Part shown: piece by piece, positions 7,198-46,298 of the stretch | Position numbering within the stretch: position 1 is the stretch's first letter | How the letters are laid out: the number at the start of each line of letters is the position of its first letter | Origin: Escherichia phage KKP 3954 | DNA: 64,000 bases | Sequence record: OR067838.1 | Direction: 5' to 3' (one strand) | Made by a program: the position numbers and the translations under genes | Notes under the pieces: model-generated | What the model saw: the letters and a program-made list of their open reading frames with translations, nothing else | What the model was told of the DNA's origin: nothing | Databases searched by the model: none

Positions 7198-7276
7198 TGG
7201 AGGCGGGAATTGGATTTGAACCAATGATCTCCAGCATATGAAACTGGCGAGGACGACCAGACTCCTCTATCCCGCT
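7198..7276 (-). tRNA. tRNA-Met (anticodon CAT)
   Basis: Manual cloverleaf: CCA encoded, acceptor GGCGGGA/TCCCGCT, T-arm ATTGG-ATTTGAA-CCAAT, anticodon loop rc TTCATAT; long D-loop. Confidence 0.6.
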
Positions 7277-7280
7277 ATCA

Positions 7281-7352
7281 TGTATCCCGTGCTGGATTCG
7301 AACCAGCGTCACAATAAATTGTGGATCTCTTATCCTGTAAGTCTAACGGGAA
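7281..7352 (-). tRNA. tRNA-like element, no canonical anticodon arm (possible pseudo-tRNA)
   Basis: Perfect T-arm GCTGG-ATTCGAA-CCAGC and 6/7 acceptor complementarity, but no 5-bp anticodon stem found by hand. Confidence 0.25.
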
Positions 7353-7354
7353 AC

Positions 7355-7428
7355 TGGTTGTTTCGACAAGAATCGAACTTGTGTCTCACGATTATCAGTC
7401 GTGGGTTCTACCATTGAACTACGAAACA
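7355..7428 (-). tRNA. tRNA-Ile (anticodon GAT)
   Basis: CCA encoded; acceptor TGTTTCG/CGAAACA; T-arm ACAAG-AATCGAA-CTTGT; anticodon stem CACGA/TCGTG, loop rc CTGATAA. Confidence 0.7.
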
Positions 7429-7434
7429 TTTAAT

Positions 7435-7511
7435 TGGTCGGAATTGCAGGATTCGAACCTGCGACCCTACGCTCCCAAAGCGTATGCTCTACCAAACTGA
7501 GCTAAATTCCG
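7435..7511 (-). tRNA. tRNA-Pro (anticodon TGG)
   Basis: CCA encoded; acceptor CGGAATT/AATTCCG; T-arm GCAGG-ATTCGAA-CCTGC; D-arm GCTC-TACCAAACT-GAGC; anticodon stem TACGC/GCGTA. Confidence 0.75.
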
Positions 7512-7516
7512 TTATA

Positions 7517-7592
7517 TGGCTGGTCTGTCTGGATTTGAACCAAACCTACGACAGTCAAAGTGTCGTGTGCTACCGGACTACACTACAAACCA
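7517..7592 (-). tRNA. tRNA-Gln (anticodon TTG)
   Basis: CCA encoded; T-loop ATTTGAA; anticodon stem CGACA/TGTCG, loop rc CTTTGAC; one mismatch each in T-stem and acceptor. Confidence 0.6.
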
Positions 7593-7690
7593 ATAAATCA
7601 TTTAATGAAGGGCAACCAGAAGAAGTGTGAGAGAAGGAGAAAACCATGAGTAAAAGAGAAAGTTTTCTGGCAACCCTTTATTAAATAATT

Positions 7691-7764
7691 TGGAGCGTTC
7701 TACGAGGATCGAACTCGTGCCGCCGACTTGGAAGGACGGAATGCTACCGCTACACCAAGAACGC
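7691..7764 (-). tRNA. tRNA-Gly (anticodon TCC)
   Basis: CCA encoded; acceptor GCGTTCT/AGAACGC; T-arm ACGAG-GATCGAA-CTCGT; anticodon loop rc CTTCCAA; one mismatch in anticodon stem. Confidence 0.55.
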
Positions 7765-7775
7765 CCTATATATTT

Positions 7776-7805
7776 ACTATACTACATTTTACTATTTGTT
7801 GTCAA
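7776..7805 (-). promoter_or_regulatory. sigma70-like promoter upstream of tRNA-Gly
   Basis: Minus strand TTGACA-N18-TATAGT, placing the start site a few nt before tRNA-Gly. Confidence 0.4.
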
Positions 7806-8077
7806 GACTTTTATTGATTGGGACAGTGACGAGTATCCCGTTGGGTGACTAGCCCTACGTTCGGTAAGCTAACTTAAAATAATACAAAACCAAAGTCAAA
7901 TATTATTCTTCGTTGCTGTCGATGGGAGAGCCGCTTCTCATTTTGCCCCATCCAACCCTACTCCGGTCAAGTTTCGGGTGACTCTTTTTGTGATCAACAC
8001 AATACTAAGAACACTGTCTTTCGAGCAGACCTTGTGCACAGGAACGACGATCAATCACAATGCTCTTAATGTTGTGT

Positions 8078-8152
8078 TGGTGCTCCCACACTGAATCGAA
8101 CAGAGATCCACGGATTACAAAACCGTTGTAATAGCCATTATACTATAGGAGC
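8078..8152 (-). tRNA. tRNA-Thr (anticodon TGT)
   Basis: CCA encoded; acceptor GCTCCCA/TAGGAGC; T-loop AATCGAA; anticodon loop rc TTTGTAA; single mismatches in T and anticodon stems. Confidence 0.6.
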
Positions 8153-8158
8153 AATGCT

Positions 8159-8235
8159 GGGACTCGGCAGGATTCGATACCTGCAATTCCAGAAGCCTAT
8201 TGGCGACTGGGGGTTTACCTTAACTCTACAAGTCC
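8159..8235 (-). tRNA. tRNA-like element, unresolved fold
   Basis: T-arm-like GCAGG-ATTCGATA-CCTGC (8-nt loop) and acceptor-like complementarity GGACTCG/CAAGTCC; no canonical anticodon arm found by hand. Confidence 0.25.
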
Positions 8236-8242
8236 ATAATTC

Positions 8243-8328
8243 TGGCGATGAGTATAGGATTCGAACCTATATTGTTCTTTCGAACACGGATTAACAGTCC
8301 GCCGCTTAAACCGTTCAGCCAACTCATC
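8243..8328 (-). tRNA. tRNA with anticodon GTT (Asn-type) and an atypical 15-nt variable region
   Basis: CCA encoded; perfect acceptor GATGAGT/ACTCATC; T-arm ATAGG-ATTCGAA-CCTAT; anticodon stem ACGGA/TCCGC, loop rc CTGTTAA; extra GTTC-TTTC-GAAC hairpin. Confidence 0.45.
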
Positions 8329-8334
8329 TTAATT

Positions 8335-8422
8335 TGGTGGTGAGTGATGGAGTCGAACCACCCGAATCGCAATGATAACAGATTTACAGTCTGCCCCGCT
8401 ACCCCTACGGAATTAACTCACC
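8335..8422 (-). tRNA. tRNA-Tyr (anticodon GTA)
   Basis: CCA encoded; acceptor GGTGAGT/ACTCACC; T-loop AGTCGAA; long variable arm (class II); anticodon loop rc CTGTAAA. Confidence 0.7.
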
Positions 8423-8553
8423 TAAATACTAATATTTAAATTCTTTTTAAAATAGCCAGTGTTCGCACCACTAACTATGAGTTATCGGTAAGATGGTGGG
8501 GGGCTATCTTCCGAAAGTTTACTCTATTAAAGTAAGCTACATTAAAAAGAACT

Positions 8554-8639
8554 TGGCGGTAGATGTAGGACTCGAACCTACACGCCGTTTCCGACTACAG
8601 TTTAGCAAACTGTCGTGGCTACCATTTCACCAATCTACC
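8554..8639 (-). tRNA. tRNA-Ser (anticodon GCT)
   Basis: CCA encoded; acceptor GGTAGAT/ATCTACC; T-arm GTAGG-ACTCGAA-CCTAC; anticodon stem ACAGT/ACTGT, loop rc TTGCTAA; long variable arm. Confidence 0.75.
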
Positions 8640-8644
8640 TAATC

Positions 8645-8735
8645 TGGCGGAAGGAGGGAGAGTCGAACTCCCAAGGCTCTTTCAAGCTCGGCGGTTTTCA
8701 AGACCGTTTTCGTCGCCACATCGATTTGCCCTTCC
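8645..8735 (-). tRNA. tRNA-Ser (anticodon TGA)
   Basis: CCA encoded; T-arm GGGAG-AGTCGAA-CTCCC; anticodon stem GCGGT/ACCGT (G-U), loop rc CTTGAAA; long variable arm. Confidence 0.7.
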
Positions 8736-8969
8736 ATACTTATAATCTAACATAAAATAATGATTGTTGTCAATACTTTTTTAAAACATTTTACCATGAA
8801 TGGTGACTCCACCAACCCCCGTTCTCCACGAACGGTGCTCTTCGAGCATTTATGTCTTCTAATATAACCGTGGCCTTTGTTTATAATGTCTGACATACTT
8901 GCCTCATTCTCTGCCACCATGATCAGTAGTGGGTTCAAATCACTTGAGCTAATTCATGTTAAAATGTTC

Positions 8970-9044
8970 TGGTGTCTTTACAAGGAATCGAACCTTGACT
9001 AAGAGTTTAGAAGACTCCTGTGCTATCCATTACACCATAAAGAC
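8970..9044 (-). tRNA. tRNA-Arg (anticodon TCT)
   Basis: CCA encoded; acceptor GTCTTTA/TAAAGAC; T-arm CAAGG-AATCGAA-CCTTG; anticodon loop rc CTTCTAA. Confidence 0.7.
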
Positions 9045-9046
9045 GT

Positions 9047-9121
9047 TGGTGGCCCTGGCTGGTTTCGATCCAGCTACCTATCGGTTATGAGCCGACAGCT
9101 CTCCCATTGAGCTACAGGGCC
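9047..9121 (-). tRNA. tRNA with anticodon CAT (second copy; initiator Met or lysidine-Ile)
   Basis: CCA encoded; acceptor GGCCCTG/CAGGGCC; T-arm GCTGG-TTTCGAT-CCAGC; D-arm GCTC-TCCCATT-GAGC; anticodon loop rc CTCATAA. Confidence 0.7.
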
Positions 9122-12395: not shown

Positions 12396-12862
12396 GAATT
12401 AAAGTAACTAAAGCTTACGATGATAACCCGAAGTTTATCTCTTTGAATAAGAGTTATGGTGTCGAAAACGGCGATGAGTTCGAGGTTATCGATCTTTTTG
12501 AGGACCACGGTTATATTGTCAAAGCCCCAATCACAGAGCAGGCTATTATCATCTTACGCACAGAGGCTGTTGAGGTAGGTTCTGATGAGCCTCAATATGA
12601 CAGCCCATACATGACAGAGTGGATTGTGGCTGTAGATGTTGGAGGCAGGGTTTCTGTATTGAAAGCTCCTAATCTCCATCCTAGTTTTACAGAGAACGGT
12701 AAGACAGCTTTGGATTATGGGTTGCCAGAAGATGTTGAGAATACACCGCCAGGTATGTACCGTTGGATTTGCTCTTTCCATGAAGAGAAGGATTGGGAAT
12801 CAGGGCTTGTTGATGATTGGCATTTTGAAGTGGAAAGTTCTTTTTTAATCATGCCAGCTTAA
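12392..12862 (+). CDS. hypothetical protein
   Basis: 156 aa; ATGA overlap with upstream gene. Confidence 0.55.
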   Translation: MRIKVTKAYDDNPKFISLNKSYGVENGDEFEVIDLFEDHGYIVKAPITEQAIIILRTEAVEVGSDEPQYDSPYMTEWIVAVDVGGRVSVLKAPNLHPSFTENGKTALDYGLPEDVENTPPGMYRWICSFHEEKDWESGLVDDWHFEVESSFLIMPA

Positions 12863-12872
12863 AGGAGGTTAT

Positions 12873-13217
12873 ATGAAAGTTTGGATAGATGATATGCGGA
12901 ACCCAGCCGACTATGGACAGGAAGATGCAATTTGGTTTAAAACGTCACAAGAAGCTATGGCCTTTCTCAATGATCCTGCTAAACTGTATCGAAGAGTAAC
13001 CGAGTGGTCTTTTGACAATGATTTAGGTATGGAGTCAGACCAAGATGGGTATGATGTTTTCCTGCACCTGGAAGAACTTCTGGCGTTTGGTAAACCTTGC
13101 TTTGGTTCACCTACCATTTTCGTGCATACTTCTAATCCCGCCGCTGGGGATAAATTCATGCTTGCAAAAGAATCCATGCTGCGTTATGGTATTAAAATGA
13201 TTCGTGTGCACTACTAA
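12873..13217 (+). CDS. hypothetical protein
   Basis: 114 aa; AGGAGG RBS. Confidence 0.55.
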   Translation: MKVWIDDMRNPADYGQEDAIWFKTSQEAMAFLNDPAKLYRRVTEWSFDNDLGMESDQDGYDVFLHLEELLAFGKPCFGSPTIFVHTSNPAAGDKFMLAKESMLRYGIKMIRVHY

Positions 13218-13226
13218 GGAGAGAAC

Positions 13227-13370
13227 ATGCATCATTTGGTTTGGTCGGAACAAGAAGAGGACGAAGGTTACTTTATCTACCGAGAAGAAGAGGATTGGCC
13301 CGACACAAGTAATGATCTTTTACTTCCAGACACTAGTTTTTTCGAGGATAACTTAAGAGAGGAGGATTAG
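13227..13370 (+). CDS. small acidic hypothetical protein (47 aa)
   Basis: Not in track (<60 aa); AGGAGAGAAC RBS then ATG; fills the gap between flanking genes. Confidence 0.35.
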   Translation: MHHLVWSEQEEDEGYFIYREEEDWPDTSNDLLLPDTSFFEDNLREED

Positions 13371-13376
13371 GAAACA

Positions 13377-13733
13377 ATGAGTGGTATTGAAAACAACATT
13401 TGTTACCAACCTCTTACCTGGATGGGTGAGGGTCATTATGCGCAACGTGTTATCGTCTGTGCTGCAAATAAGTATATTTTGAATAATGGTGAAGAGTTAA
13501 TTATTCCTTGTGTTCGACATGCAAATCCTGTACTATATGCACAGTTAAACGTGTTGAAAGAAGCAGGTGTAATCAACAAAACTTTGTGCACACCAGATAA
13601 TCAAGGCTTTATCGATCAGTATTACAATTGGTGGAGTCGTGCGGATGCTTACATCATCGCGGAAAATGCTGACCAGATCGACCATGAGCGTAATGGTCAC
13701 GACCATGAATTATTTAGCGAGGGATTATACTAA
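13377..13733 (+). CDS. hypothetical protein
   Basis: 118 aa; GGAGG RBS. Confidence 0.55.
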   Translation: MSGIENNICYQPLTWMGEGHYAQRVIVCAANKYILNNGEELIIPCVRHANPVLYAQLNVLKEAGVINKTLCTPDNQGFIDQYYNWWSRADAYIIAENADQIDHERNGHDHELFSEGLY

Positions 13734-14284
13734 TGTTTATTACAAGCGATTTGCATTTTATGCATAAACGTATTCGAGAGTTTGCTCCTGAATATCGTCC
13801 CTGGGAAGATATGGACCACATGACAGAAGCCTTGATCGAAGCATGGAACAAATGTGCTACTACTCCTGGTGTTAAGATGTGGCATTTGGGCGACTTCTGT
13901 TTCGGAACTGAAGAAGATACCCGTAAAATTGCTTCCCGTCTCCAAGGAGATATCACCTACTGTGTTGGGAACCATGACTACAGCAAACACCGAGAAGTGC
14001 TTGCAGAGTATGGAGAAGTGGTGTATTATGACGAAGTGAAATATCAGAAGCTGTTCTTCGTCTTAAGCCATTACCCTATGGCCTCCTGGAATAAACAAGG
14101 TCGTGGATCAATCATGCTACACGGGCATTCCCACGGATCTTTCCCTGATGAAGCTTATGGTAAAATGTTAGATGTGGGTTGGGATGCACACGGAAAAATC
14201 TTGCATTTTGATGAGATAATTTCTATGATGAGTAAACGAGATATCGTGACTGTAGACCATCACAAAATAATCAAAGGAGAGTAA
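13733..14284 (+). CDS. calcineurin-like metallophosphoesterase
   Basis: 183 aa; phosphoesterase motifs HLGDFCFG, GNHD, HGHSHG; first gene of RNA-repair-like trio. Confidence 0.65.
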   Translation: MFITSDLHFMHKRIREFAPEYRPWEDMDHMTEALIEAWNKCATTPGVKMWHLGDFCFGTEEDTRKIASRLQGDITYCVGNHDYSKHREVLAEYGEVVYYDEVKYQKLFFVLSHYPMASWNKQGRGSIMLHGHSHGSFPDEAYGKMLDVGWDAHGKILHFDEIISMMSKRDIVTVDHHKIIKGE

Positions 14285-14285
14285 T

Positions 14286-15218
14286 GTGACTAAATTTAAT
14301 TGCGACGATTTGGTTGAAAAAGGTTTAGTTCATAAGAAAACATATAAAGAAGGAGAGTATTCTGGTCTATCTGTTCTTAAGTATAAGAACAAAGTTTTCT
14401 GGGATAACTTATGGAGCATTGATTCTCGTCTTCTAGAATGTCGCGGAATCGTTGTTGATGCTGATGACAATGTTGTTATTTGGCCTTTCACTAAGATTTT
14501 TAATCGTTTTGAGAATGGCACAGATCTACCATTGGATGAACTTGTAGATGTGGTTCGTAAAGTAAATGGTTTTATGGCCTCTGTAGGTGTATATAAAGGT
14601 CAACTTATTGTATCGACAACAGGAAGCCTTGAATCAGATTTTGCAAGTATTGCAAAGAATCGTATTGTTTCAGAGTGTGATGACATAGAACATTTCATCA
14701 AATGGACAGAGAGTGCAAAAGCAACTTTCCTTTTTGAAATCTGTGATCCTTCTGATCCGCATATTGTCGAAGAAGAACCAGGTGCATACTTAATTGGTGC
14801 CAGAATTCAAAATCCTGATGGGACAAGTTTTATGTTACCTGAAGGTGCTCTTGATGGAATTGCTTCTGTCACCAAATTTAAGCGTCCTGAAGTTCATCCA
14901 ATGGTTAAGTTTTCAGATGTTGTTGAAATGTCTAAACATTGTAAACACGAAGGGTTTATTGTTCGTGAAACAAACTGTCCGTTTAACTTACTTTTAAAGA
15001 TTAAGTCACCATACTATCTTACTAAGAAGTTTCTTATGCGTGGTGGAGATAAGAAGTGGGATCTTATTTGGGATAATCCAAAAAATGCCAAACAAATTGT
15101 TGACGAAGAATATTACACTTTGTTAGAATGGATTCGAAATAATTTTACGAAGACTCAATGGGCTGCTTTAAATCAGCAAGAGCGACGTGAAGAAATCGAA
15201 AACTTCTTTGGAGGATAA
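14286..15218 (+). CDS. nucleotidyltransferase of the ligase family (RNA-ligase-like)
   Basis: 310 aa; GTG start after AGGAGAG; motif I-like KVNG, motif IV-like EGFIV, motif V-like LKIK. Confidence 0.5.
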   Translation: MTKFNCDDLVEKGLVHKKTYKEGEYSGLSVLKYKNKVFWDNLWSIDSRLLECRGIVVDADDNVVIWPFTKIFNRFENGTDLPLDELVDVVRKVNGFMASVGVYKGQLIVSTTGSLESDFASIAKNRIVSECDDIEHFIKWTESAKATFLFEICDPSDPHIVEEEPGAYLIGARIQNPDGTSFMLPEGALDGIASVTKFKRPEVHPMVKFSDVVEMSKHCKHEGFIVRETNCPFNLLLKIKSPYYLTKKFLMRGGDKKWDLIWDNPKNAKQIVDEEYYTLLEWIRNNFTKTQWAALNQQERREEIENFFGG

Positions 15219-15623
15219 ATGAAACAACTTATCATTTTACGTGGTGTTTCAGGTGCTGGTAAATCTACAGTAGCAGAAATTATTTCTGAAGGTTATTGGC
15301 CTATCTGCGAGGCAGATCAATATCATTACACAGAAAGTGGTGTTTACGATTGGAAGCCAGAAAATGTAGGTAAAGCACACGCATGGTGTCAGAGTATTGT
15401 TCGTGATGCTATGGCGTCTAATCTTAACAAGATTATTGTTTCTAACACTTCAACCACAGAGAAAGAACTTAAACCTTATCTAGCTCTTGCTGAAGAGTTT
15501 GGTTATCAAGTTATCTCTTTAGTTGTTGAAAATAGGCACGGTAATGATTCAATTCACGAGGTTCCACAATATATCCGTGATCAGCAAGAGAAACGTCTTC
15601 GTGGTTCACTTAAACTTCAATAA
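15219..15623 (+). CDS. polynucleotide 5'-kinase (P-loop, T4 Pnk kinase-domain-like)
   Basis: 134 aa; Walker A GVSGAGKST; IVSNTSTTEKE resembles the T4 Pnk IISDTN region. Confidence 0.6.
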   Translation: MKQLIILRGVSGAGKSTVAEIISEGYWPICEADQYHYTESGVYDWKPENVGKAHAWCQSIVRDAMASNLNKIIVSNTSTTEKELKPYLALAEEFGYQVISLVVENRHGNDSIHEVPQYIRDQQEKRLRGSLKLQ

Positions 15624-15632
15624 GGAGAAATA

Positions 15633-15959
15633 ATGCAGATTTATACAGATGATCGTAAATATGAGACAATTTTAGATGAAGATACTGGACGAATTACCGT
15701 TCTCCGTCACGGTGAAGAGTGGCGTGATGAAACGGGAGACAATTATATCTTGTCTCTGATTCATCTTATTGAACAAATGCGTGATGATTACGCTGAACTG
15801 CATTATGAAAATGAGGCGAATAAAGTAAAATTTGAAAATGAATTAGAAGAGAAAGAATCTGAAATGGTATATCTAAAAGAAGAGATCTCCCGTTTGGAGG
15901 AAGAGATTGATGCTCTTCAGGAAGAGATTTACGAACTCAACAGCGAACTGAATGCTTAA
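15633..15959 (+). CDS. hypothetical coiled-coil protein
   Basis: 108 aa; heptad-like C-terminus EISRLEEEIDALQEEIYELNSEL. Confidence 0.5.
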   Translation: MQIYTDDRKYETILDEDTGRITVLRHGEEWRDETGDNYILSLIHLIEQMRDDYAELHYENEANKVKFENELEEKESEMVYLKEEISRLEEEIDALQEEIYELNSELNA

Positions 15960-15968
15960 GGATGAATT

Positions 15969-16157
15969 ATGAAAAAAGATATCGTTGTTGATTGGCTGAC
16001 TTGTCCTTGTGGCAGTCATGAAATCTCTGTAAACACAGAAGGTGATAAACATTATTTGTTCTATGGTGATAAAATCACTTGCCTTTCTTGCGGACGCATT
16101 GGTATTATAGAAACAGATGATTGCTGTGTTTTTGAATCTTGGGATGAAGATGAATGA
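15969..16157 (+). CDS. hypothetical zinc-ribbon protein
   Basis: 62 aa; CPCGSHE ... CLSCGR. Confidence 0.45.
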   Translation: MKKDIVVDWLTCPCGSHEISVNTEGDKHYLFYGDKITCLSCGRIGIIETDDCCVFESWDEDE

Positions 16158-16375
16158 GTACTGCATTTTATGTTCGTAGCGGAGACGAGGATTTTCTAGC
16201 TACTTTTGATGACGGTGATCTTGAAGATATGTATGAAGATATGCTTGACTATGCCAAAGGGCAAGGTTTCACAAGCATTGATTATATGTTGGCAACATCT
16301 ACAACGTTACTCGACGCAGATTTGGATGAAGTGTGTAACAGATTGAAAATTTCAGTTTTTAAATGGGAGGACTAA
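16154..16375 (+). CDS. hypothetical acidic protein
   Basis: 73 aa; ATGA overlap. Confidence 0.45.
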   Translation: MSTAFYVRSGDEDFLATFDDGDLEDMYEDMLDYAKGQGFTSIDYMLATSTTLLDADLDEVCNRLKISVFKWED

Positions 16376-17490
16376 TGCAACAAACAAATCAAACGCTGTA
16401 TGGTAAAGATTCAAAAGGAAAACTTAAACAGTGGACAGTGTATACAGATGGTGCAGTTGTTACTGTAGCTCATGGAAGGGTAGGTGGAAAAATCACAGAA
16501 AAATCTTATACAGCAGAAGCAAAAAACATTGGTCGTTCCAATGAAACAACACCGGAAGAACAAGCTGAACTTGAAGCTTTTGCCAAATGGACAAAACAGT
16601 TAAAGAATGGCTATTATAAAACAAAAGAAGAAGCTGAAAACCATGTTCCTTCTACACCAATGAAATGCCAGGATTATAAAGATTATCCTGAAAGGGTTGT
16701 GTTCCCTGGTTATGCACAATACAAACTGAACGGGTTACGTTCTATGATTAACATGAAAGGGGAGTGTTTATCAAAAGCTGGGGAAGTGTATAACCTGCCA
16801 CCTCATTGGGAAGGTATTCCAAACTTTATTAGTGAAGTTGTTGGTCATCCTCTTGATGGTGAAGTGTTTGCTGGGTTAGGTGTCCTTAGTCTGCAACAAA
16901 TTAACAGTGCCTGGAAGAAGCATAATGCAAATACACCTTTGCTGAATTATTACGTATACGATATTCCAGTTCCAGATCTACCGTTTGAAAAACGTGTTGA
17001 TGTTCTGGCTGCTCTTAAGGCAGTAGTGGAAGATTATGGTCTTGATGAGCTTATTTGTGTAGTTCATACAGAGTATATTGAAAACCAAGAACAGTTTGAT
17101 GCTTTCTATGAAAAAGCTTTACTTGAAAAGGCTGAAGGTGTAGTATATCGTAATGCTCGCGGAGTTTACGAATTTGATAAACGTTCTTATGACGTTATTA
17201 AACGTAAGCCTCGCCACACCCTTGAAGTTAAAGTAACAAATTCAAAAAGTGATAAAAATGGCGATGGAGTGTTGACAGGTGAGATGGAAAATGGTAAAGT
17301 AGTCGAATTCTTAATGCGTAAAGATGCTCATGAGACTATCAATTATCGTAAAGCAGAGAATGCTTCTACCTTGATTAATCAGTTCGTTGAAATAGAGTAT
17401 GAAGAATTTTCAGATGAAGGTATTCCAACAAAACCTGTTGGTGTTCGTATTCGAGAAATGATCCCAGGCACTTGGGAACCAGCAGAATAA
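16375..17490 (+). CDS. ATP-dependent DNA ligase (minimal type)
   Basis: Track ORF 16363..17490; GGGAGG RBS supports MQQTNQ start; motif I KLNGLR, III LDGEVF, IV EGVVYR, V VIKRK. Confidence 0.55.
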   Translation: MQQTNQTLYGKDSKGKLKQWTVYTDGAVVTVAHGRVGGKITEKSYTAEAKNIGRSNETTPEEQAELEAFAKWTKQLKNGYYKTKEEAENHVPSTPMKCQDYKDYPERVVFPGYAQYKLNGLRSMINMKGECLSKAGEVYNLPPHWEGIPNFISEVVGHPLDGEVFAGLGVLSLQQINSAWKKHNANTPLLNYYVYDIPVPDLPFEKRVDVLAALKAVVEDYGLDELICVVHTEYIENQEQFDAFYEKALLEKAEGVVYRNARGVYEFDKRSYDVIKRKPRHTLEVKVTNSKSDKNGDGVLTGEMENGKVVEFLMRKDAHETINYRKAENASTLINQFVEIEYEEFSDEGIPTKPVGVRIREMIPGTWEPAE

Positions 17491-17499
17491 GGAGGAAAA

Positions 17500-17694
17500 A
17501 TGTTCTTAGCCATTCTAATCGTTTTCAGTGTGCTTTCTTTTTATTGTATGAATGCTTCTGAAAACTTTCCTAAGAATTCAAAGAAAAGAACCGTATGTAT
17601 TGCGATTGATTCATGTATGTCTGGAGTTGGGTATGCGGTAGTTTCTTGTTTCTTAGCTTATCATTGTGCAAAATACCTGGAGGCATTTTTATGA
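17500..17694 (+). CDS. small membrane protein
   Basis: 64 aa, hydrophobic N-terminus. Confidence 0.4.
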   Translation: MFLAILIVFSVLSFYCMNASENFPKNSKKRTVCIAIDSCMSGVGYAVVSCFLAYHCAKYLEAFL

Positions 17695-17873
17695 TAATTT
17701 TAGCAACAATTCTTATGATGTTGATAGCCATTGCTATTGTAATTCTGGCATCTTTTCCGGCGGATAAATGGTATTTCAATATTCCACGTATGCTTGTTTT
17801 CGGTTTCGCAGGAATTTACATGGGTGAGACTGTAGTAAATATTAGCAACTTTCTAGAAAGCTATTTTAAATAA
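17691..17873 (+). CDS. small membrane protein
   Basis: Track ORF 17613..17873; GGAGG RBS supports start MIILATILMM; two hydrophobic segments. Confidence 0.45.
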   Translation: MIILATILMMLIAIAIVILASFPADKWYFNIPRMLVFGFAGIYMGETVVNISNFLESYFK

Positions 17874-17882
17874 GGAGTTATA

Positions 17883-18608
17883 ATGATCGAGAATTTTTTT
17901 AAAGATATTAAATTCGATACTGAATTTTTCAAAAATGCAGCAAAGCACGTGATTGACTGGAATGCCAAAGCACGAGGTGGTGAACAACCGGAATTCACTC
18001 AAGAGCTATTTATGTCCCAAATCGGGTTCGTTCGTGAAGAGCTTAAAGAGTATGAAACAGCCGCGAAAGTAAACGATCATGTAGAACTCTTGGATGCAGC
18101 AGCGGATATTTTTGTAGTATCAAGTTATCTGACTTACATGTTCTTTGGTGAAGAACATACGATGAATTTCTTGGACTATGCTGTAGGCGATGTTTTTACT
18201 CCAACTGTGTATACTGATTTTGATGCTTTGGAACAAACATTTACAGAGCCAGTTCAAATGGCACTAATGGCTGCTGGTATTATGCGTATGTCTCGTGACA
18301 CTCTAATCCGTTCAAAATATCCAGAAAAGAAAGTTATTAAAGAGGTATTGAAAAGTAATGATTCCAAGTATCCAACTAAACAACAGTTGCTGAAAACTTG
18401 GAAAACTTCAGATATCGATTCAGCCATTGCACAAGAATGCACTGCAATTGAAGAACGAAATGCCAATCGTCCAGAAGGAGCATACACTGGTGTTCATGCT
18501 GTTTATAATGAAAAACAGAAAGTGTATGTGTTCTTTGATGATAAAGGTAAGATCATGAAACCATCGACCTTTGTCAAACCTAATATTGCAGGTATTATTA
18601 ATAAGTAA
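17883..18608 (+). CDS. putative all-alpha NTP pyrophosphohydrolase (MazG/dUTPase-like)
   Basis: 241 aa; EELKEYETA ... ELLDAAADIF resembles the MazG EExxE/ExxD metal-binding pattern; weak. Confidence 0.35.
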   Translation: MIENFFKDIKFDTEFFKNAAKHVIDWNAKARGGEQPEFTQELFMSQIGFVREELKEYETAAKVNDHVELLDAAADIFVVSSYLTYMFFGEEHTMNFLDYAVGDVFTPTVYTDFDALEQTFTEPVQMALMAAGIMRMSRDTLIRSKYPEKKVIKEVLKSNDSKYPTKQQLLKTWKTSDIDSAIAQECTAIEERNANRPEGAYTGVHAVYNEKQKVYVFFDDKGKIMKPSTFVKPNIAGIINK

Positions 18609-19547: not shown

Positions 19548-19605
19548 TTGACTTGCGGGATTAGTTATGATATTATGCCTACCTACTTAATGAGGTAGGC
19601 TTTTT
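19548..19605 (+). promoter_or_regulatory. composite promoter / terminator-like hairpin
   Basis: TTGACT-N17-TATTAT directly followed by GCCTACCT-loop-AGGTAGGC hairpin plus TTTTT, then RBS of the 19616 gene. Confidence 0.4.
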
Positions 19606-37707: not shown

Positions 37708-37902
37708 ATGCAGAGCGGAGAAGAACTTTTAGAGAAACAATTCTCAACGCGTCAACAAGCTTTAAGTTATATGGTTTTTCTAAGCAATCTTGATGTGAAT
37801 GAGATACTTTTACGGCGCGAAGGTAATTTCTGGAGCGTTAAATACCATGCAACAAGATCTGTAATCTACCTAGAAGAGGCGGAATTCTCTTTGGTAGAAT
37901 GA
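37708..37902 (+). CDS. hypothetical protein
   Basis: 64 aa; AGGAGGG RBS; preceded by hairpin plus T-run. Confidence 0.45.
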   Translation: MQSGEELLEKQFSTRQQALSYMVFLSNLDVNEILLRREGNFWSVKYHATRSVIYLEEAEFSLVE

Positions 37903-37916
37903 TCCGAGGAGTAGTT

Positions 37917-38489
37917 ATGCGTTCAACTTTCACTGGCAAAATAAACGCTGGTTTAATTTTTACCGCAGTAAGCATTCTTAGCAAAAAGTTTAAAGTTGTT
38001 AACTTACCTGTGTGTGTCGATTTCGATCATGTCTTTGATCCTTCGAACCCCACTCGTTGCATAGTAAGGAGTAATGTTGAAAACCCAACAGAAAATCTTT
38101 TTTATGTAACAAAACCATCTCAAAGCATACTTAACCAGGTTGAGGCGAAATTGATACCTAACGGTAAATATTACTCCTTTTTACCTTGCAAGTCGGTTGA
38201 AGTAGAGAATAGCAATACTTTCGCTAACAACTTGTCTGTATTCGTTTTCTTTGTTTCGCACGAAGATGAAACAGATGAAATGGTAGCAACAGTGAGATCA
38301 CTTTATGACTCTTTAGGGGTTGTTTATAGACAACAAGTGTGCGAAAATAATAAAGCTTGTGTAGATTTCATTATCAACGGTATTTGTGTTTGTAGAGTAG
38401 AATCTTTTTGGCTGCACGATACATATGTGACTGTAGCAGAGGTTATATCTGAACCAAAATTTAGTCATGCGGTTTCGTTAATAATTTGA
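37917..38489 (+). CDS. hypothetical protein
   Basis: Track ORF 37899..38489; GAGGAG RBS supports start MRSTFTGK. Confidence 0.5.
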   Translation: MRSTFTGKINAGLIFTAVSILSKKFKVVNLPVCVDFDHVFDPSNPTRCIVRSNVENPTENLFYVTKPSQSILNQVEAKLIPNGKYYSFLPCKSVEVENSNTFANNLSVFVFFVSHEDETDEMVATVRSLYDSLGVVYRQQVCENNKACVDFIINGICVCRVESFWLHDTYVTVAEVISEPKFSHAVSLII

Positions 38490-38499
38490 GGAGGAAGGA

Positions 38500-38829
38500 A
38501 TGGAAATTACTACAGAACAAGCCCTTATCGACGAGGGTCGTAAAATCTTAGAAAAGCATTTAGGGGAGATTCATAAAACTCCTGGCTATTTGGGTTGGAG
38601 AATTGTTGAAGCTGTAGATTTCCTTCCTCGTAACAGTAAAAGCGTCGAAATGCGATCTCTTTTCTTATTAGTAAAGGTGGATGGGGATACACCTTTTAAA
38701 GATGCCGCAGAGCATATTGAAAAAGTTGAAGAGAAAGCTTATGCAGAATTTGCCGATCTTGTTTTAGAACAAAAGATTGAAGGAAAGGTGAATATTTTTA
38801 TTTTCTTAGATTTTGAGGAGGATAAGTGA
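38500..38829 (+). CDS. hypothetical protein
   Basis: 109 aa; GGAGGAAGG RBS. Confidence 0.55.
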   Translation: MEITTEQALIDEGRKILEKHLGEIHKTPGYLGWRIVEAVDFLPRNSKSVEMRSLFLLVKVDGDTPFKDAAEHIEKVEEKAYAEFADLVLEQKIEGKVNIFIFLDFEEDK

Positions 38830-39569
38830 TCATACATAGAGAAATTACTGTTAAAAGCGATCAAGATCTTTTTATAATTGGAGATCTACACGGTTGTTAT
38901 AATTTGTATGAAAAAGGAAAGGCAAAGTTAGGTATCCGAGATACAGATGTAGTTGTATCTTTAGGAGATCTTACTGACCGTGGAAAGCAAAACTTTCGTT
39001 GTGTTTTAGAATTTACTCGTAAACACAATCGCTACGCTATTCGTGGAAATCATGAAGACATGATGATTAAAGGTATGCTGGAAGGAGATCGTAGCTACTT
39101 CGAGTGTTGGTATCAAAATGGAGGATATACAGTCCTTGAAGAATGTGGTGAAGAAGGAGCTACAGCCTTAGCAATGATGACAGAAGATTTACCTGTTGTT
39201 CTCATTGTTAACTACAGAGGCATGAAACTTGCGTTTATTCATGGTGGGTATCCATCTTCTTTGGAATATCTCCCTGTAACAGATATTCCAGAATACACTT
39301 TGAAGATGACAAAAACACAGGAAAACCGTTTTGCTGAAGCACTTATGTGGGACAGAGATATGGTGGACTGTGCTAAAGAGGGAATGAAACTTCCTGTTGT
39401 GATGGGTGTGGACTATGTGTTTCATGGACACTCTTATGTAAAAACACCTATTATCAATGCGAATCGTGTTTATATGGATACTGGATCTGTGTTCAATAAT
39501 AACTTAACATTTGCTTATTTCGATATGGACGGTGGTCTTCAATTTTATTCAACTCTTGAGGAGGATTAA
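38826..39569 (+). CDS. Ser/Thr protein phosphatase (PPP family, lambda-phosphatase-like)
   Basis: 247 aa; GTG start; motifs GDLHG, GDLTDRG, RGNHE. Confidence 0.75.
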   Translation: MIIHREITVKSDQDLFIIGDLHGCYNLYEKGKAKLGIRDTDVVVSLGDLTDRGKQNFRCVLEFTRKHNRYAIRGNHEDMMIKGMLEGDRSYFECWYQNGGYTVLEECGEEGATALAMMTEDLPVVLIVNYRGMKLAFIHGGYPSSLEYLPVTDIPEYTLKMTKTQENRFAEALMWDRDMVDCAKEGMKLPVVMGVDYVFHGHSYVKTPIINANRVYMDTGSVFNNNLTFAYFDMDGGLQFYSTLEED

Positions 39570-45024: not shown

Positions 45025-45498
45025 ATGTTTCAAGTAAATATCAATGTGCATAATAGTTACTCTGATTGTGAAACGTGTGGCTATAATTCATCTAATGTTG
45101 TTCGTATTAGTGGCGATTTAGGAGAAGCTTCTTTTGGAGAAGAAGCAAGTTGCTTTAGTGGTATGGATGCAGAATGGAATGATATTGCACATTGGTTGGT
45201 GAGCAAACTAAAAGAAAAAGAGAAACCATTTCCTACTCTGCTTGATCGTTCTCTTGTAGAAGATGCAGGTAAAGCATATGCAGACTATGCGTATGCAGAC
45301 GGGAAATATTTGGAAGATGATAAGGCTAACCATTTGCTTTATGTTTACTATGAAGCTGAATCTGCCTACGATAATTATTATAGCATGTCTAACATCCTCC
45401 GTCTATTTGCAGAGTTTGATATTTATTTCGAAGTAGAATTTTCAGAAGACGATACTTACGAATATGATTCTTATGATCCATTTGAGGAGGACGAATAA
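45025..45498 (+). CDS. hypothetical acidic protein
   Basis: 157 aa; GGAGGG RBS. Confidence 0.5.
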   Translation: MFQVNINVHNSYSDCETCGYNSSNVVRISGDLGEASFGEEASCFSGMDAEWNDIAHWLVSKLKEKEKPFPTLLDRSLVEDAGKAYADYAYADGKYLEDDKANHLLYVYYEAESAYDNYYSMSNILRLFAEFDIYFEVEFSEDDTYEYDSYDPFEEDE

Positions 45499-46298
45499 TG
45501 CCAAGACGTGTATATTTTATTAGTGGTGCGGGACTAAGTGCTGACAGCGGAATCCAAACATTTCGCACAGAAACAGATTCTGGAAAGGCATTATGGGATG
45601 AATATGATTTAACAGAAGTCTGTGACATTTTCAACTTCCGTGACGGTTATCAGCAAGAACAGGGTATTCCTGATGCTATGGGTGGCTTAGATGTGGAAGG
45701 ATATAACCTCTACCGTAAAACTCACGACTTCTACAATAAACGTCGCGTGGAATTAGAGAAAGTTGACCCGAATCCAGCACATCTTCAGATTGGAGAATGG
45801 TTCGAAAAATACGGTGCAGAAAGGATTATTAACATTACTACTAACGTTGACGATCTATTAGAACGCGCTGGAATCGATAGAGAAGAAATATTGCACGTTC
45901 ATGGTTTCTTGCCAGAAGTTGTTGTTGATAACAAAATTATCAAAGATGTGGGTTACGCAGCTATTGATGTAGACGATTACAAATATGTGAAGCCTAATGT
46001 GGTGTTTTTTGGTGAGAATGCACCACTCTACACAGACATGTATCACAAACTGGATCAACTAACATCACAAGATATGGTTATCGTTGTAGGCTGCTCTAAC
46101 CAAGTAATCAACTTCAACTGGGAACTCTTCCCTGCCCTGAATATTGGGGTTAAGATGGTTGTAGTTAACCCAGGTTTGAATTTTGTAGAACAAACTCTCT
46201 ACGAAGAACGTGGAGTGCTTGTCTACCGAGAGAAAGCAGGAACAGTCTTCAGTGATGAAGGCTTTATCAAAATGGTTGAAGACCATTTAAACAAATAA
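45498..46298 (+). CDS. sirtuin-like (SIR2 family) NAD-dependent protein without zinc ribbon
   Basis: 266 aa; FISGAGLSADSGIQTFR, NPAH, TTNVDDL, HVHG, VVFFGE, VVGCS in SIR2 order; no Cys4 module. Confidence 0.6.
   Translation: MPRRVYFISGAGLSADSGIQTFRTETDSGKALWDEYDLTEVCDIFNFRDGYQQEQGIPDAMGGLDVEGYNLYRKTHDFYNKRRVELEKVDPNPAHLQIGEWFEKYGAERIINITTNVDDLLERAGIDREEILHVHGFLPEVVVDNKIIKDVGYAAIDVDDYKYVKPNVVFFGENAPLYTDMYHKLDQLTSQDMVIVVGCSNQVINFNWELFPALNIGVKMVVVNPGLNFVEQTLYEERGVLVYREKAGTVFSDEGFIKMVEDHLNK

What the first reader, a model, noticed from the sequence alone, without database searches (positions are those of the whole stretch)
13733..15623. Three-gene RNA-repair-like cassette: metallophosphoesterase, RNA-ligase-like enzyme, polynucleotide kinase
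Three adjacent co-oriented genes encode a calcineurin-type phosphoesterase (HLGDFCFG, GNHD, HGHSHG), a ligase-family nucleotidyltransferase (KVNG, EGFIV, LKIK) and a P-loop kinase resembling the T4 Pnk kinase domain (GVSGAGKST, IVSNTSTTEKE). End-healing phosphatase, 5' kinase and sealing ligase are exactly what T4 Pnk plus Rnl1 and bacterial Pnkp/Hen1 use to repair tRNAs cut by anticodon nucleases. Here the activities are split into three proteins with a calcineurin-type rather than HAD-type phosphatase, next to a separate DNA ligase gene and near a large tRNA cluster. That suggests a counter-defence module against tRNA-cleaving host systems.
Basis: partly seen in the sequence, partly recalled or inferred. 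Interest (0 to 1): 0.65.

Follow-up and report, generated by a model that had tools for sequence, protein, structure and literature searches.

The report
Phage RNA heal-and-seal gene cassette
Three abutting early genes of this E. coli phage (phAPEC8 group) encode a metal-dependent phosphoesterase, a T4-Rnl1-type RNA ligase and a small polynucleotide kinase, which together very probably mend RNAs such as tRNAs cut by host defence nucleases; this kind of module was already predicted by comparative genomics but has never been tested.

Summary
They encode a 183-aa dinuclear metallophosphoesterase (MPE), a 310-aa Rnl1-family RNA ligase and a 134-aa Pnk-type P-loop kinase. The window is a Phapecoctavirus (98% identical to phage Schickermooser/ESCO13), where GenBank already calls these genes phosphoesterase, RNA ligase and polynucleotide kinase.

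The functional link is strong. Of 80 viral loci with a ligase relative, 71 have the kinase and 64 the MPE within 3 kb, in shuffled gene orders. Eleven viral loci fuse kinase and ligase in one reading frame. Cyanobacteria encode a single kinase-MPE-ligase protein. Where this ligase type is missing next to kinase+MPE, a different RNA ligase family sits there.

The 'would refute' outcome did not occur: the ligase is far from DNA ligases and capping enzymes, and the kinase matches polynucleotide kinases best.

The interpretation needs correcting on three points. A calcineurin-type healing phosphatase is not new (C. thermocellum Pnkp has one), although this MPE belongs to a different, uncharacterised clade. 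The module probably also includes an upstream cREC gene. Iyer et al. 2022 already described the equivalent rV5/Mydo neighbourhood. My verdict is a real, untested member of a known kind, of moderate interest.

The parts
13733..14284 (+). Dinuclear metallophosphoesterase (183 aa), the predicted 3'-end healing enzyme (2',3'-cyclic phosphodiesterase and/or 2'/3'-phosphatase)
14286..15218 (+). Rnl1-family ATP-dependent RNA ligase (310 aa, GTG start), the sealing enzyme
15219..15623 (+). Minimal Pnk-type 5'-OH polynucleotide kinase (134 aa)
   Evidence: AAA_33 E 2.4e-10, phrog_2071 E 2e-56 and phrog_505 'polynucleotide kinase' E 2.7e-8. The family profile hits Pnkp1 (4xrp, 8.6e-8), T4 Pnk (6e-5) and the CthPnkp kinase (7e-4) in the PDB. 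hhalign to T4 Pnk residues 1-149 gives probability 97.4%, E 1e-11, with K15/S16 and D33 matching catalytic D35. It is fused to the ligase in 11 viral loci.
12873..13217 (+). cREC protein (114 aa), a probable accessory member predicted in the literature to open cyclic phosphates
   Evidence: PF20274 cREC_REC E 6.7e-17. In rV5-like loci its homologue sits between the ligase and the kinase (order MPE..RNL-cREC-KIN). The prediction comes from PMC7824862 and PMC9503650. No enzyme activity has been shown.
13377..13733 (+). 118-aa ORF of unknown function (phrog_839), translationally coupled to the MPE gene; membership in the module is uncertain
   Evidence: Its stop overlaps the MPE start. It has no Pfam, PDB or PADLOC hit. 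It is linked to the cassette only in close relatives and in L070. The GenBank label 'anti-restriction nuclease' has no support here.
13227..13370 (+). 47-aa ORF between cREC and phrog_839, function unknown
   Evidence: It is annotated in Schickermooser and ESCO5. It has a Shine-Dalgarno sequence and no Pfam hit.
45498..46298 (+). SIR2-family protein, a possible distant partner; its homologue is adjacent to the kinase in rV5-like phages
   Evidence: PF02146 E 1.4e-20. It is 54% identical to the sirtuin at L005 9724-10500, which directly follows the kinase there. PMC9503650 proposes a KptA/Tpt1-like role for this sirtuin.
17883..18608 (+). MazG-like nucleotide pyrophosphohydrolase, listed in PMC9503650 as part of the rV5/Mydo neighbourhood; its role in RNA repair is not established
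   Evidence: PF01503 E 2.9e-6 and phrog_671 E 7e-29. It is present downstream in the rV5-like loci.
19577..19600 (+). Intrinsic-terminator-like hairpin that probably ends the + strand transcription unit containing the cassette
   Evidence: An 8-bp GC-rich stem followed by a T-run. The same site is annotated as a terminator in MK373788.

Best explanation
The cassette is a phage-encoded RNA 'heal-and-seal' repair module. It is built from separate small proteins and is expressed with early and DNA-metabolism genes.

Proposed mechanism, all steps inferred. A host metal-independent ribonuclease, such as an anticodon nuclease or a HEPN or toxin RNase, leaves a 2',3'-cyclic phosphate and a 5'-OH. The 134-aa kinase transfers a phosphate from NTP to the 5'-OH. 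The metallophosphoesterase, possibly helped by the upstream cREC protein, opens or removes the cyclic phosphate to expose a 3'-OH. The Rnl1-type ligase adenylylates itself on Lys92, transfers AMP to the 5'-phosphate and seals the break. Translation needed for phage growth is thereby restored.

What is shown: the family assignments, intact catalytic residues, and the conserved linkage and fusion of the three activities.
What is inferred: the enzyme activities, RNA (tRNA) as the substrate, and the counter-defence role.
For: Family identity:
- Kinase: the best PDB profile hits are polynucleotide kinases of RNA-repair systems, and hhalign to the T4 Pnk kinase domain gives probability 97.4%.
- MPE: all metal ligands are invariant.

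Genomic coupling:
- In 80 IMG/VR loci with a ligase relative (40-88% identity), the kinase lies within 3 kb in 71, the MPE in 64 and both in 57. Gene orders are permuted: MPE-ligase-kinase 27 times, kinase-ligase-MPE 19 times, with cREC 10 times.
- Starting from the kinase, 51 of 80 loci carry the MPE and/or the ligase.
- Starting from the MPE, 40 of 80 loci carry the ligase and/or the kinase.

Fusions:
- Kinase and ligase share one reading frame in 11 viral loci, a 432-aa ORF in L055. Cardiobacteriaceae MAG contigs carry ~490-aa ORFs spanning both.
- Leptolyngbyaceae cyanobacteria carry ORFs of about 700-780 aa spanning kinase and ligase. The one scanned (L250, 732 aa) reads kinase-Metallophos-RNA_lig_T4_1. 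Its kinase and phosphatase parts match CthPnkp (4j6o E 5e-25, 4gp6 E 2e-9).

Non-orthologous displacement: in kinase+MPE loci that lack this ligase, the neighbouring ~375-aa gene is a PF09414 RNA ligase with a PHA02142 OB domain in 7 of 10 tested.

Precedent: T4 Pnk with Rnl1 (T4 record notes) and CthPnkp (PMC2190708). The rV5/Mydo neighbourhood was already predicted to be RNA repair (PMC9503650).
Against: - None of these proteins has been assayed, and I found no genetic data for this phage group.
- The MPE clade (aq_1665/COG4186) has no known substrate. Half of its viral members have no RNA ligase or kinase nearby and no consistent partner.
- The kinase lacks counterparts of T4 Pnk Arg38 (His36 here) and, in the gapless alignment, of Arg126.
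- The ligase has Thr112 where T4 Rnl1 has Lys119, and Asn94 where T4 has Asp101. It also lacks the T4 C-terminal domain that gives tRNA specificity (PMC6379707). A preference for tRNA is therefore not supported by homology.
- The window encodes a second, lambda-Pase-type MPE (38826-39569) that could equally heal 3' ends.
- The cassette sits among DNA-metabolism genes (DNA ligase, RdgC, exonucleases).
Confidence: 0.72

Rival explanations
1. Same module, but eukaryote-type chemistry. The 2',3'-cyclic phosphate is opened to a 3'-OH,2'-PO4 end by cREC or the MPE. The ligase needs or tolerates that 2'-phosphate, as fungal Trl1 does. The junction 2'-phosphate is then removed by the phage sirtuin acting like Tpt1/KptA, or by host KptA.
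For: - The ligase clade has an invariant Asn in motif I (K92-V-N94-G), as in Trl1 (KENG), where T4 has KEDG.
- An invariant His159 falls in the same profile column as the Trl1 His of 'EEH' in HMM alignments (H227 in Chaetomium).
- Invariant Lys248 and Arg252 lie 8 and 12 residues after motif V. In Trl1, Arg334 and Arg337 lie at +9 and +12 (PMC6379707).
- Those Trl1 residues hold the sulfate that mimics the 2'-PO4, and R334/R337 give 2'-P specificity (PMC6379707, PMC12440814).
- PMC9503650 proposes a KptA-like role for the sirtuin linked to the cassette in rV5-like phages. A homologue is in this window.
Against: - No 3D superposition was possible, so the residue equivalences rest on motif spacing and one profile alignment.
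- The two Trl1 arginines are absent from plant Trl1, so they are not a universal signature (PMC12440814).
- Most ligase loci (about 65 of 80) have neither cREC nor a sirtuin nearby.
- The cyanobacterial fusion pairs this ligase clade with a CthPnkp-type phosphatase.
- By sequence profile the family hits T4 Rnl1 but not Trl1.
Confidence: 0.15
2. The three genes are neighbours without a common pathway. The MPE degrades nucleotides or cyclic-nucleotide signals, the kinase is a nucleoside or nucleotide kinase feeding phage DNA synthesis, and only the ligase acts on RNA.
For: - Half of the MPE homologues occur with no ligase or kinase nearby, among replication and nucleotide-metabolism genes.
- 29 of 80 kinase loci have neither partner.
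- The kinase also gives weak P-loop hits to gluconokinase, nicotinamide riboside kinase and a dNMP-kinase PHROG.
- The region is rich in nucleotide-metabolism genes.
Against: - Kinase-ligase fusions and a kinase-MPE-ligase fusion exist.
- Linkage is kept through permuted gene orders.
- A different RNA ligase family replaces this one next to kinase+MPE.
- The best profile matches of the kinase are polynucleotide kinases, with the catalytic Asp conserved.
Confidence: 0.08
3. The module repairs DNA ends rather than RNA. A kinase/phosphatase pair would clean 5'-OH/3'-phosphate DNA breaks for the adjacent DNA ligase, as eukaryotic PNKP does, or the ligase's main role would be tail-fibre attachment as reported for T4 gp63.
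For: - The cassette lies 0.75 kb upstream of an ATP-dependent DNA ligase and near RdgC and exonuclease genes.
- The T4 record notes tail-fibre attachment for gp63. Databases copy the label 'RNA ligase and tail fiber protein attachment catalyst' onto this gene.
Against: - The ligase fold and motifs are those of RNA ligases, and DNA ligases score far lower.
- The DNA ligase is not consistently linked outside the rV5/phAPEC8 groups, whereas kinase and MPE are.
- The module occurs as a single polypeptide on cyanobacterial chromosome-scale contigs, where tail-fibre assembly is irrelevant.
- The alternative partner ligases are also RNA ligases.
Confidence: 0.05

Closest known systems
Phage T4 Pnk (pseT) plus Rnl1 (rnlA, gp63) tRNA repair pathway
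   Different: - The phosphatase is a metallophosphoesterase, not the HAD domain fused to T4 Pnk.
- The kinase is a stand-alone 134-aa protein.
- The genes abut, whereas in T4 pseT and rnlA are 1.4 kb apart with four genes between them.
- The ligase has Asn94 and Thr112 in place of T4 Asp101 and Lys119. It lacks the T4 C-terminal tRNA-specificity domain and carries a ~70-aa helical tail of which about 50 residues find no structural match.
Bacterial Pnkp (Clostridium thermocellum Pnkp/Hen1; Capnocytophaga Pnkp1-Rnl-Hen1)
   Same: The domain content is kinase + dinuclear metallophosphoesterase + ATP-dependent RNA ligase. The best PDB hit of the kinase profile is Pnkp1 (4xrp, E 8.6e-8). Cyanobacterial kinase-MPE-ligase fusions join CthPnkp-like healing domains to a ligase of the window's clade.
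   Different: - Here there are three separate proteins and no Hen1 methyltransferase.
rV5/Mydo-type phage neighbourhood predicted to be RNA repair by Iyer, Burroughs, Anantharaman and Aravind 2022 (PMC9503650, section 3.7.3)
   Same: It has the same gene families: a T4-like tRNA ligase, cREC, a nucleotide kinase, MazG, 'occasionally' a calcineurin-like phosphoesterase, and a sirtuin. The rV5-like loci L005-L009 carry ligases 58-78% identical to the window's.
   Different: In this Phapecoctavirus the order is cREC-x-x-MPE-ligase-kinase, against MPE..ligase-cREC-kinase-sirtuin in rV5-like phages. The sirtuin is 30 kb away. The MPE is a constant member here and in most metagenomic relatives, not an occasional one.
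Fungal tRNA ligase Trl1 (LIG-KIN-CPD)
   Different: There is no 2H-type CPD domain, the C-terminal domain differs, and there is no evidence for a 2'-phosphate requirement. The kinase is not the GTP-dependent Trl1 KIN type as far as was tested.

Membership tests
Rnl1-type ATP-dependent RNA ligase (T4 Rnl1; Pfam PF09511) | Covalent nucleotidyltransferase motifs I, III, IV and V with a lysine nucleophile | tested here: met
   K92 (KVNG), E151, E222-G223 and K238/K240 are invariant in 24 homologues and align with T4 K99, E159, E227-G228 and K240/K242.
Rnl1-type ATP-dependent RNA ligase (T4 Rnl1; Pfam PF09511) | Rnl1-specific N-terminal sub-domain with Arg54, Lys75 and Phe77 equivalents | tested here: met
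   R53, K70 and F72 are invariant or nearly invariant and align to T4 R54, K75 and F77. PMC6379707 documents the role of R54 and K75.
Rnl1-type ATP-dependent RNA ligase (T4 Rnl1; Pfam PF09511) | Whole-domain score above the curated family threshold, and a fold closest to Rnl1 | tested here: met
Rnl1-type ATP-dependent RNA ligase (T4 Rnl1; Pfam PF09511) | T4-type C-terminal domain, which defines the Rnl1 clade in Shuman's scheme and confers tRNA specificity | tested here: not met
   Only about 260 of 310 residues align structurally. In alignment A5 the T4-like C-domain is shared by a separate viral clade but not by the window's clade. The clade definition is from PMC6379707.
Rnl1-type ATP-dependent RNA ligase (T4 Rnl1; Pfam PF09511) | Motif Ia Lys119 and motif I Asp101 of T4 Rnl1 | tested here: not met
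   They are aligned to invariant T112 and N94. The functional importance of K119 is recalled from the literature and was not checked here.
Rnl1-type ATP-dependent RNA ligase (T4 Rnl1; Pfam PF09511) | ATP-dependent sealing of 3'-OH/5'-PO4 RNA ends | not testable with these tools
   This needs an enzyme assay.
5'-OH polynucleotide kinase (T4 Pnk / CthPnkp kinase clade of P-loop kinases) | P-loop GxxGxGK(S/T) | tested here: met
   G9-VSGAG-K15-S16-T17, with G12, G14 and K15 invariant.
5'-OH polynucleotide kinase (T4 Pnk / CthPnkp kinase clade of P-loop kinases) | Catalytic Asp (T4 Asp35) that activates the 5'-OH | tested here: met
   D33 is invariant and aligned to T4 D35.
5'-OH polynucleotide kinase (T4 Pnk / CthPnkp kinase clade of P-loop kinases) | Arg38 and the lid Arg126 of T4 Pnk | tested here: inconclusive
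   Nearly invariant H36 aligns to R38. Invariant R106 aligns to R122 and D110 to R126 in the hhalign output. A shift of the lid segment cannot be excluded.
5'-OH polynucleotide kinase (T4 Pnk / CthPnkp kinase clade of P-loop kinases) | Closest characterised relatives are polynucleotide kinases rather than nucleotide kinases | tested here: met
   PDB profile search: Pnkp1 8.6e-8, T4 Pnk 6e-5, CthPnkp kinase 7e-4. Thymidylate and adenylate kinases score 0.05 or worse.
Dinuclear metallophosphoesterase (calcineurin-like) superfamily | Signature motifs DxH, GD, GNH(D/E), H, GH and GxH | tested here: met
   D6/H8, G53-D54, G79-N80-H81, H113, G131-H132 and H134 are all invariant in 29 sequences. The fold is confirmed.
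Lambda-Pase / CthPnkp phosphatase clade (the MPE clade with proven RNA end-healing activity) | Sequence and structural membership in that clade | tested here: not met
rV5/Mydo-type predicted RNA-repair neighbourhood (PMC9503650) | Co-occurrence of a T4-like ligase, cREC, a nucleotide kinase, MazG and a sirtuin (with or without a calcineurin-like PE) in one neighbourhood | tested here: met
   Ligase, cREC, kinase, MPE and MazG lie within 12873-18608. The sirtuin is present but 30 kb away, so that one element is unlinked here.

The most novel reading that the evidence does not exclude
The ligase belongs to a distinct Rnl1-like clade. That clade is shared with cyanobacterial kinase-phosphatase-ligase fusion proteins. 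Its invariant Asn94, His159, Lys248 and Arg252 would re-create the 2'-phosphate pocket of fungal Trl1.

On this reading the phage runs a eukaryote-type repair pathway in E. coli. The cyclic phosphate is opened to a 2'-phosphate by cREC or the MPE. The 5' end is phosphorylated. Sealing depends on the 2'-phosphate. The junction 2'-phosphate is then removed by the phage sirtuin or by host KptA. This would also give E. coli KptA, a Tpt1 homologue whose natural substrate is unknown (from my own knowledge, not checked here), a physiological substrate.
Probability: 0.15. Interest if true: 0.75.

Novelty: new member of a known kind. Interest (0 to 1): 0.4.

Why it matters
Many bacterial defences work by cutting tRNA or other RNAs, and the T4 Pnk/Rnl1 pair is the classic phage answer. 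This cassette is a compact alternative that is common in phages. It is present in the phAPEC8-like and rV5-like coliphage loci examined here and in many uncultured phages.

Knock-outs could be plated directly against PrrC, RloC, HEPN and toxin RNases. That would show which defences these phages evade by repair rather than by supplying their own tRNAs.

The parts are also of enzymological interest:
- a 134-aa polynucleotide kinase, smaller than the 171-aa CthPnkp and 181-aa T4 Pnk kinase-domain constructs in the PDB;
- the first functional context for the aq_1665/COG4186 phosphoesterase clade;
- an Rnl1-like ligase with a C-terminal module that matches no solved structure and some Trl1-like residues.

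Tried and rejected
- Single-sequence PDB searches gave only marginal hits for the ligase (T4 Rnl1 E 0.02) and only generic P-loop hits for the kinase. Family profiles were needed.
- I looked for a consistent partner of the MPE in the 40 viral loci that lack the ligase and kinase. A Pfam census of 133 neighbouring ORFs found none: mixed replication and nucleotide-metabolism genes and one RtcB.
- I considered that the cassette might be a defence or superinfection-exclusion system. PADLOC gave no significant hit for any member.
- I considered that the MPE is a CthPnkp or lambda-Pase orthologue and rejected this. A true lambda-Pase homologue lies elsewhere in the window.
- The 118-aa phrog_839 protein has no Pfam, PDB or PADLOC match, so it stays unassigned.
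- Burroughs and Aravind 2016 (NAR) could not be read because it is not held.
- A paper giving the T4 Rnl1 Lys119/Arg54 mutational data was not found. The Lys119 role is therefore from memory.
- A 3D superposition of the ligase model on Trl1 to test the 2'-phosphate pocket was not possible, because no coordinates were accessible.
- Literature searches for experiments on this phage group's RNA ligase or kinase found nothing.
Full report
IDENTITY OF THE WINDOW. The region 12800-17500 is 98% identical over its full length to Escherichia phages of the genus Phapecoctavirus (Stephanstirmvirinae), including vB_EcoM-Ro121lw, ESCO13, Schickermooser, ESCO5 and phAPEC8 variants. In all, 126 phage records match. 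The window is therefore a ~150-kb coliphage of the phAPEC8 group. G+C is about 38%, and the GC skew changes sign near 10 kb and 46 kb, which marks a long + strand block of early and metabolic genes.

THE OBSERVATION. Three ORFs lie exactly where reported: 13733-14284 (183 aa), 14286-15218 (310 aa, GTG start) and 15219-15623 (134 aa). Each is preceded by a Shine-Dalgarno sequence. The MPE stop and the ligase start are 1 nt apart, the ligase stop abuts the kinase ATG, and the stop of an upstream 118-aa ORF overlaps the MPE start (TAATG). Profile searches give the following:
- MPE: Metallophos E 3e-5, phrog_547 'phosphoesterase' E 6.5e-56.
- Ligase: PF09511 RNA_lig_T4_1 E 3.5e-15 across the whole model, phrog_562 E 1.6e-69.
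- Kinase: AAA_33 E 2.4e-10, phrog_2071 E 2e-56, phrog_505 'polynucleotide kinase' E 2.7e-8.

The DNA ligase (PF01068; 16363/16375-17490) and the cluster of ten tRNA genes (7198-9121, minus strand) are also confirmed. GenBank record MK373788 already labels the three genes putative phosphoesterase, putative RNA ligase and putative polynucleotide kinase.

THE LIGASE. An alignment of 24 homologues (49-86% identity) has these invariant residues: R53, K70, K92, N94, G95, G113, E151, H159, E222, G223, K238, K240, K248 and R252. Profile-profile alignment to T4 Rnl1 (probability 96%, E 4e-9) gives these equivalences:
- R53=R54, K70=K75 and F72=F77.
- K92=K99, the adenylylation nucleophile, and G95=G102.
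- E151=E159 and E222/G223=E227/G228.
- K238/K240=K240/K242.
- Two differences: N94 stands for D101 and T112 for K119.

Only about 260 of the 310 residues align, so roughly the last 50 residues of the helical C-terminal tail have no structural match. A wider alignment (A5) separates two clades of Rnl1-like ligases that sit next to the same kinase family:
- Clade A holds the window protein, the cyanobacterial fusions and the Cardiobacteriaceae fusions. It has KxNG, 'DPH' after motif III, K..R after motif V and a short tail.
- Clade B holds T4 Rnl1 and viral relatives of 342-397 aa. It has KxDG, 'NRIV' and the T4-type C-domain.

RNA ligase clades are defined by their appended domains, and the T4 C-domain confers tRNA specificity (PMC6379707). 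The window ligase is therefore Rnl1-like in its catalytic domain but is not a strict T4 Rnl1 orthologue. Specificity for tRNA cannot be inferred by homology.

THE KINASE. Single-sequence searches gave only P-loop noise. A profile of 25 homologues finds polynucleotide kinases of RNA-repair systems first: Pnkp1 of the Pnkp1-Rnl-Hen1 complex (4xrp, E 8.6e-8), T4 Pnk (6e-5) and the CthPnkp kinase domain (7e-4). Nucleotide kinases are insignificant. hhalign covers the whole T4 Pnk kinase domain, residues 1-149 (probability 97.4%, E 1e-11). K15/S16 and the catalytic D33 (=D35) are conserved. H36 stands at the R38 position, and an invariant R106 lies in the lid segment. At 134 aa it is a minimal stand-alone version of this domain.

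It belongs to a different clade from the only MPEs with proven RNA end-healing chemistry, CthPnkp and lambda-Pase, whose 2',3'-cyclic phosphodiesterase activity is shown in PMC2190708.

EVIDENCE THAT THE THREE ACT TOGETHER. Four lines of evidence apply.

(1) Conserved linkage with shuffled order. In 80 IMG/VR loci that encode a ligase relative (40-88% identity), the kinase is within 3 kb in 71, the MPE in 64 and both in 57. The orders are MPE-ligase-kinase (27), kinase-ligase-MPE (19), MPE-ligase-cREC-kinase (6), cREC-MPE-ligase-kinase (3) and others.
- Starting from the kinase, 23 of 80 loci have both partners, 20 have the MPE only and 8 the ligase only.
- Starting from the MPE, 40 of 80 loci have a partner.
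- The pattern scans of 2.9 million viral contigs confirmed 533 kinase and 571 MPE relatives among the 600 stretches returned.

(2) Fusions. Eleven viral loci encode kinase and ligase in one reading frame. In L055 this is a 432-aa ORF with AAA_33 at residues 16-115 and RNA_lig_T4_1 at 184-367. Cardiobacteriaceae MAG contigs carry ~490-aa ORFs that span the kinase and ligase matches and are followed by the MPE. About 28 Leptolyngbyaceae cyanobacterial genomes, including chromosome-scale contigs, carry ORFs of about 700-780 aa that span kinase and ligase matches. The one scanned against Pfam (L250, 732 aa) reads AAA_33 kinase - Metallophos - RNA_lig_T4_1. Its ligase part is 30-36% identical to the window family. 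Its kinase and phosphatase parts match CthPnkp (4gp6 E 2e-9; 4j6o E 5e-25).

(3) Non-orthologous displacement. In kinase+MPE loci that lack this ligase, the adjacent ~375-aa gene is an RNA ligase of another family in 7 of 10 tested. That family is PF09414 with an N-terminal PHA02142 OB domain, the architecture of the DraRnl/NgrRnl type.

(4) No member resembles a known defence protein.

Together these make a common RNA heal-and-seal function the best explanation. The weakest link is the MPE. Half of its viral relatives occur without a ligase or kinase and without any consistent neighbour.

WIDER ANATOMY. Upstream at 12873-13217 is a cREC protein (PF20274, E 6.7e-17). The cREC domain was defined by Iyer et al. 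as a receiver-like domain linked to RNA ligases and NAD/ADP-ribose enzymes. It is predicted, but not shown, to open cyclic phosphates (PMC7824862, PMC9503650). In rV5-like loci the cREC gene sits between the ligase and the kinase and is followed by a SIR2 gene, a DNA ligase and MazG.

[quoted passage not shown] The window holds a homologous sirtuin (54% identity; PF02146 E 1.4e-20), but at 45498-46298, 30 kb from the cassette. Between cREC and the MPE lie a 47-aa ORF and a 118-aa phrog_839 protein with no detectable relatives of known function. Its GenBank label 'anti-restriction nuclease' has no support here. A terminator-like hairpin at 19577-19600 probably ends the transcription unit.

MECHANISM AND RIVALS. 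The best-supported model is the classic pathway. The kinase makes the 5'-phosphate. The MPE, with or without cREC, converts the 2',3'-cyclic phosphate to a ligatable 3'-OH. The ligase seals through a Lys92-AMP intermediate. I put this at 0.72 for 'RNA heal-and-seal module'. I am less confident, at roughly an even chance, that the natural substrates are tRNAs cut by defence nucleases.

A variant deserves attention. The window's ligase clade shares several features with fungal Trl1:
- the motif I Asn (KxNG);
- a His that falls in the same profile column as Trl1 His227;
- basic residues 8 and 12 positions after motif V, compared with Arg334 and Arg337 of Trl1 at +9 and +12.

In Trl1 these residues hold the sulfate that mimics the 2'-phosphate. 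R334 and R337 confer 2'-phosphate specificity, and T4 Rnl1 will not join 2'-phosphate ends (PMC6379707, PMC12440814). Together with cREC and the sirtuin, this would fit a Trl1/Tpt1-like route.

Against this variant, the equivalences are not verified in 3D, and plant Trl1 lacks the arginines. Most clade-A loci have neither cREC nor a sirtuin nearby, and the sequence profile reaches T4 Rnl1 but not Trl1. I give it 0.15.

The other rivals are unrelated neighbours acting in nucleotide metabolism (0.08) and DNA-end repair or tail-fibre attachment (0.05). Both are disfavoured by the fusions, the ligase displacement and the fold ranking.

NOVELTY AND VERDICT. The system is of a known kind (T4 Pnk/Rnl1; bacterial Pnkp). 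Its rV5/Mydo version has been described computationally, and GenBank annotators have already named these genes. The finding is therefore a new member, not a new system.

The specific features are the aq_1665-clade MPE as a regular partner, the minimal kinase, the clade-A ligase with an unmatched C-terminal module and Trl1-like residues, and the cyanobacterial single-chain relatives. None of this has been characterised experimentally as far as the searchable literature shows. Interest is moderate, at 0.4. The result is not surprising to a specialist, but it is a clean and testable candidate counter-defence module in a group of coliphages.

Noticed in passing
window 45498-46298 (+): A SIR2-family gene (PF02146 E 1.4e-20) is 54% identical to the sirtuin that directly follows the kinase in rV5-like phages. 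Here it lies 30 kb from the cassette, at the end of the + strand block.
   Followed up: partly
window 38826-39569 (+): A second metallophosphoesterase of the lambda phosphatase type (1g5b E 9e-27). This is the clade to which the RNA-healing CthPnkp phosphatase belongs, so it could be an alternative or additional 3'-end healing enzyme.
   Followed up: partly
window 37899-38489 (+): A 196-aa ORF labelled 'histidyl tRNA synthetase' in RefSeq NC_048196 has no Pfam match. The label looks unreliable.
   Followed up: partly
L250:4714-6912 (also L261, L273, L271 and about 25 other Leptolyngbyaceae loci): Cyanobacterial genomes, some on chromosome-scale contigs, carry ORFs of about 700-780 aa spanning kinase and ligase matches. 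The one scanned (L250, 732 aa) is a single kinase-Metallophos-Rnl1-like ligase protein. Its CthPnkp-like healing domains are joined to a ligase of the phage clade rather than the Rnl4 type, and no Hen1 is adjacent in L250.
   Followed up: partly
L055:7536-8834 and ten other IMG/VR loci; L247:5446-6927: Kinase and Rnl1-like ligase share one reading frame in uncultured phages (a 432-aa ORF in L055). Cardiobacteriaceae MAG contigs carry ~490-aa ORFs spanning both matches.
   Followed up: yes
L171:6650-7783, L182:6954-8078, L183:7048-8178, L192, L213, L222, L191: Next to the same kinase+MPE pair, other phages carry a ~375-aa RNA ligase of another family (PF09414 with an N-terminal PHA02142 OB domain) in place of the Rnl1-like ligase.
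   Followed up: yes
window 13377-13733 (+): A 118-aa phrog_839 protein is translationally coupled to the MPE gene. It is labelled 'anti-restriction nuclease' in some records but has no Pfam, PDB or PADLOC match.
   Followed up: partly
window about 27-39 kb (+), mapped from NC_048196 positions 26-38 kb: The same + strand block carries rmlABCD-like dTDP-sugar synthesis genes, an HslV-like peptidase, PhoH, NrdAB, a glutaredoxin, a ThyX-like gene and two DNA methyltransferases, according to the RefSeq annotation.
   Followed up: no
one search hit list (MG065650.1, OP562383.1): Records named 'Campylobacter phage B15' and 'Acinetobacter phage vB_AbaM_ABPW7' are about 98% identical to this E. coli phage region. 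Their host labels are doubtful.
   Followed up: no
window 15633-15959 (+): A 108-aa coiled-coil protein (phrog_18076, labelled 'hol-like chemotaxis') lies immediately after the kinase. It is conserved in close relatives only, and its function is unknown.
   Followed up: no
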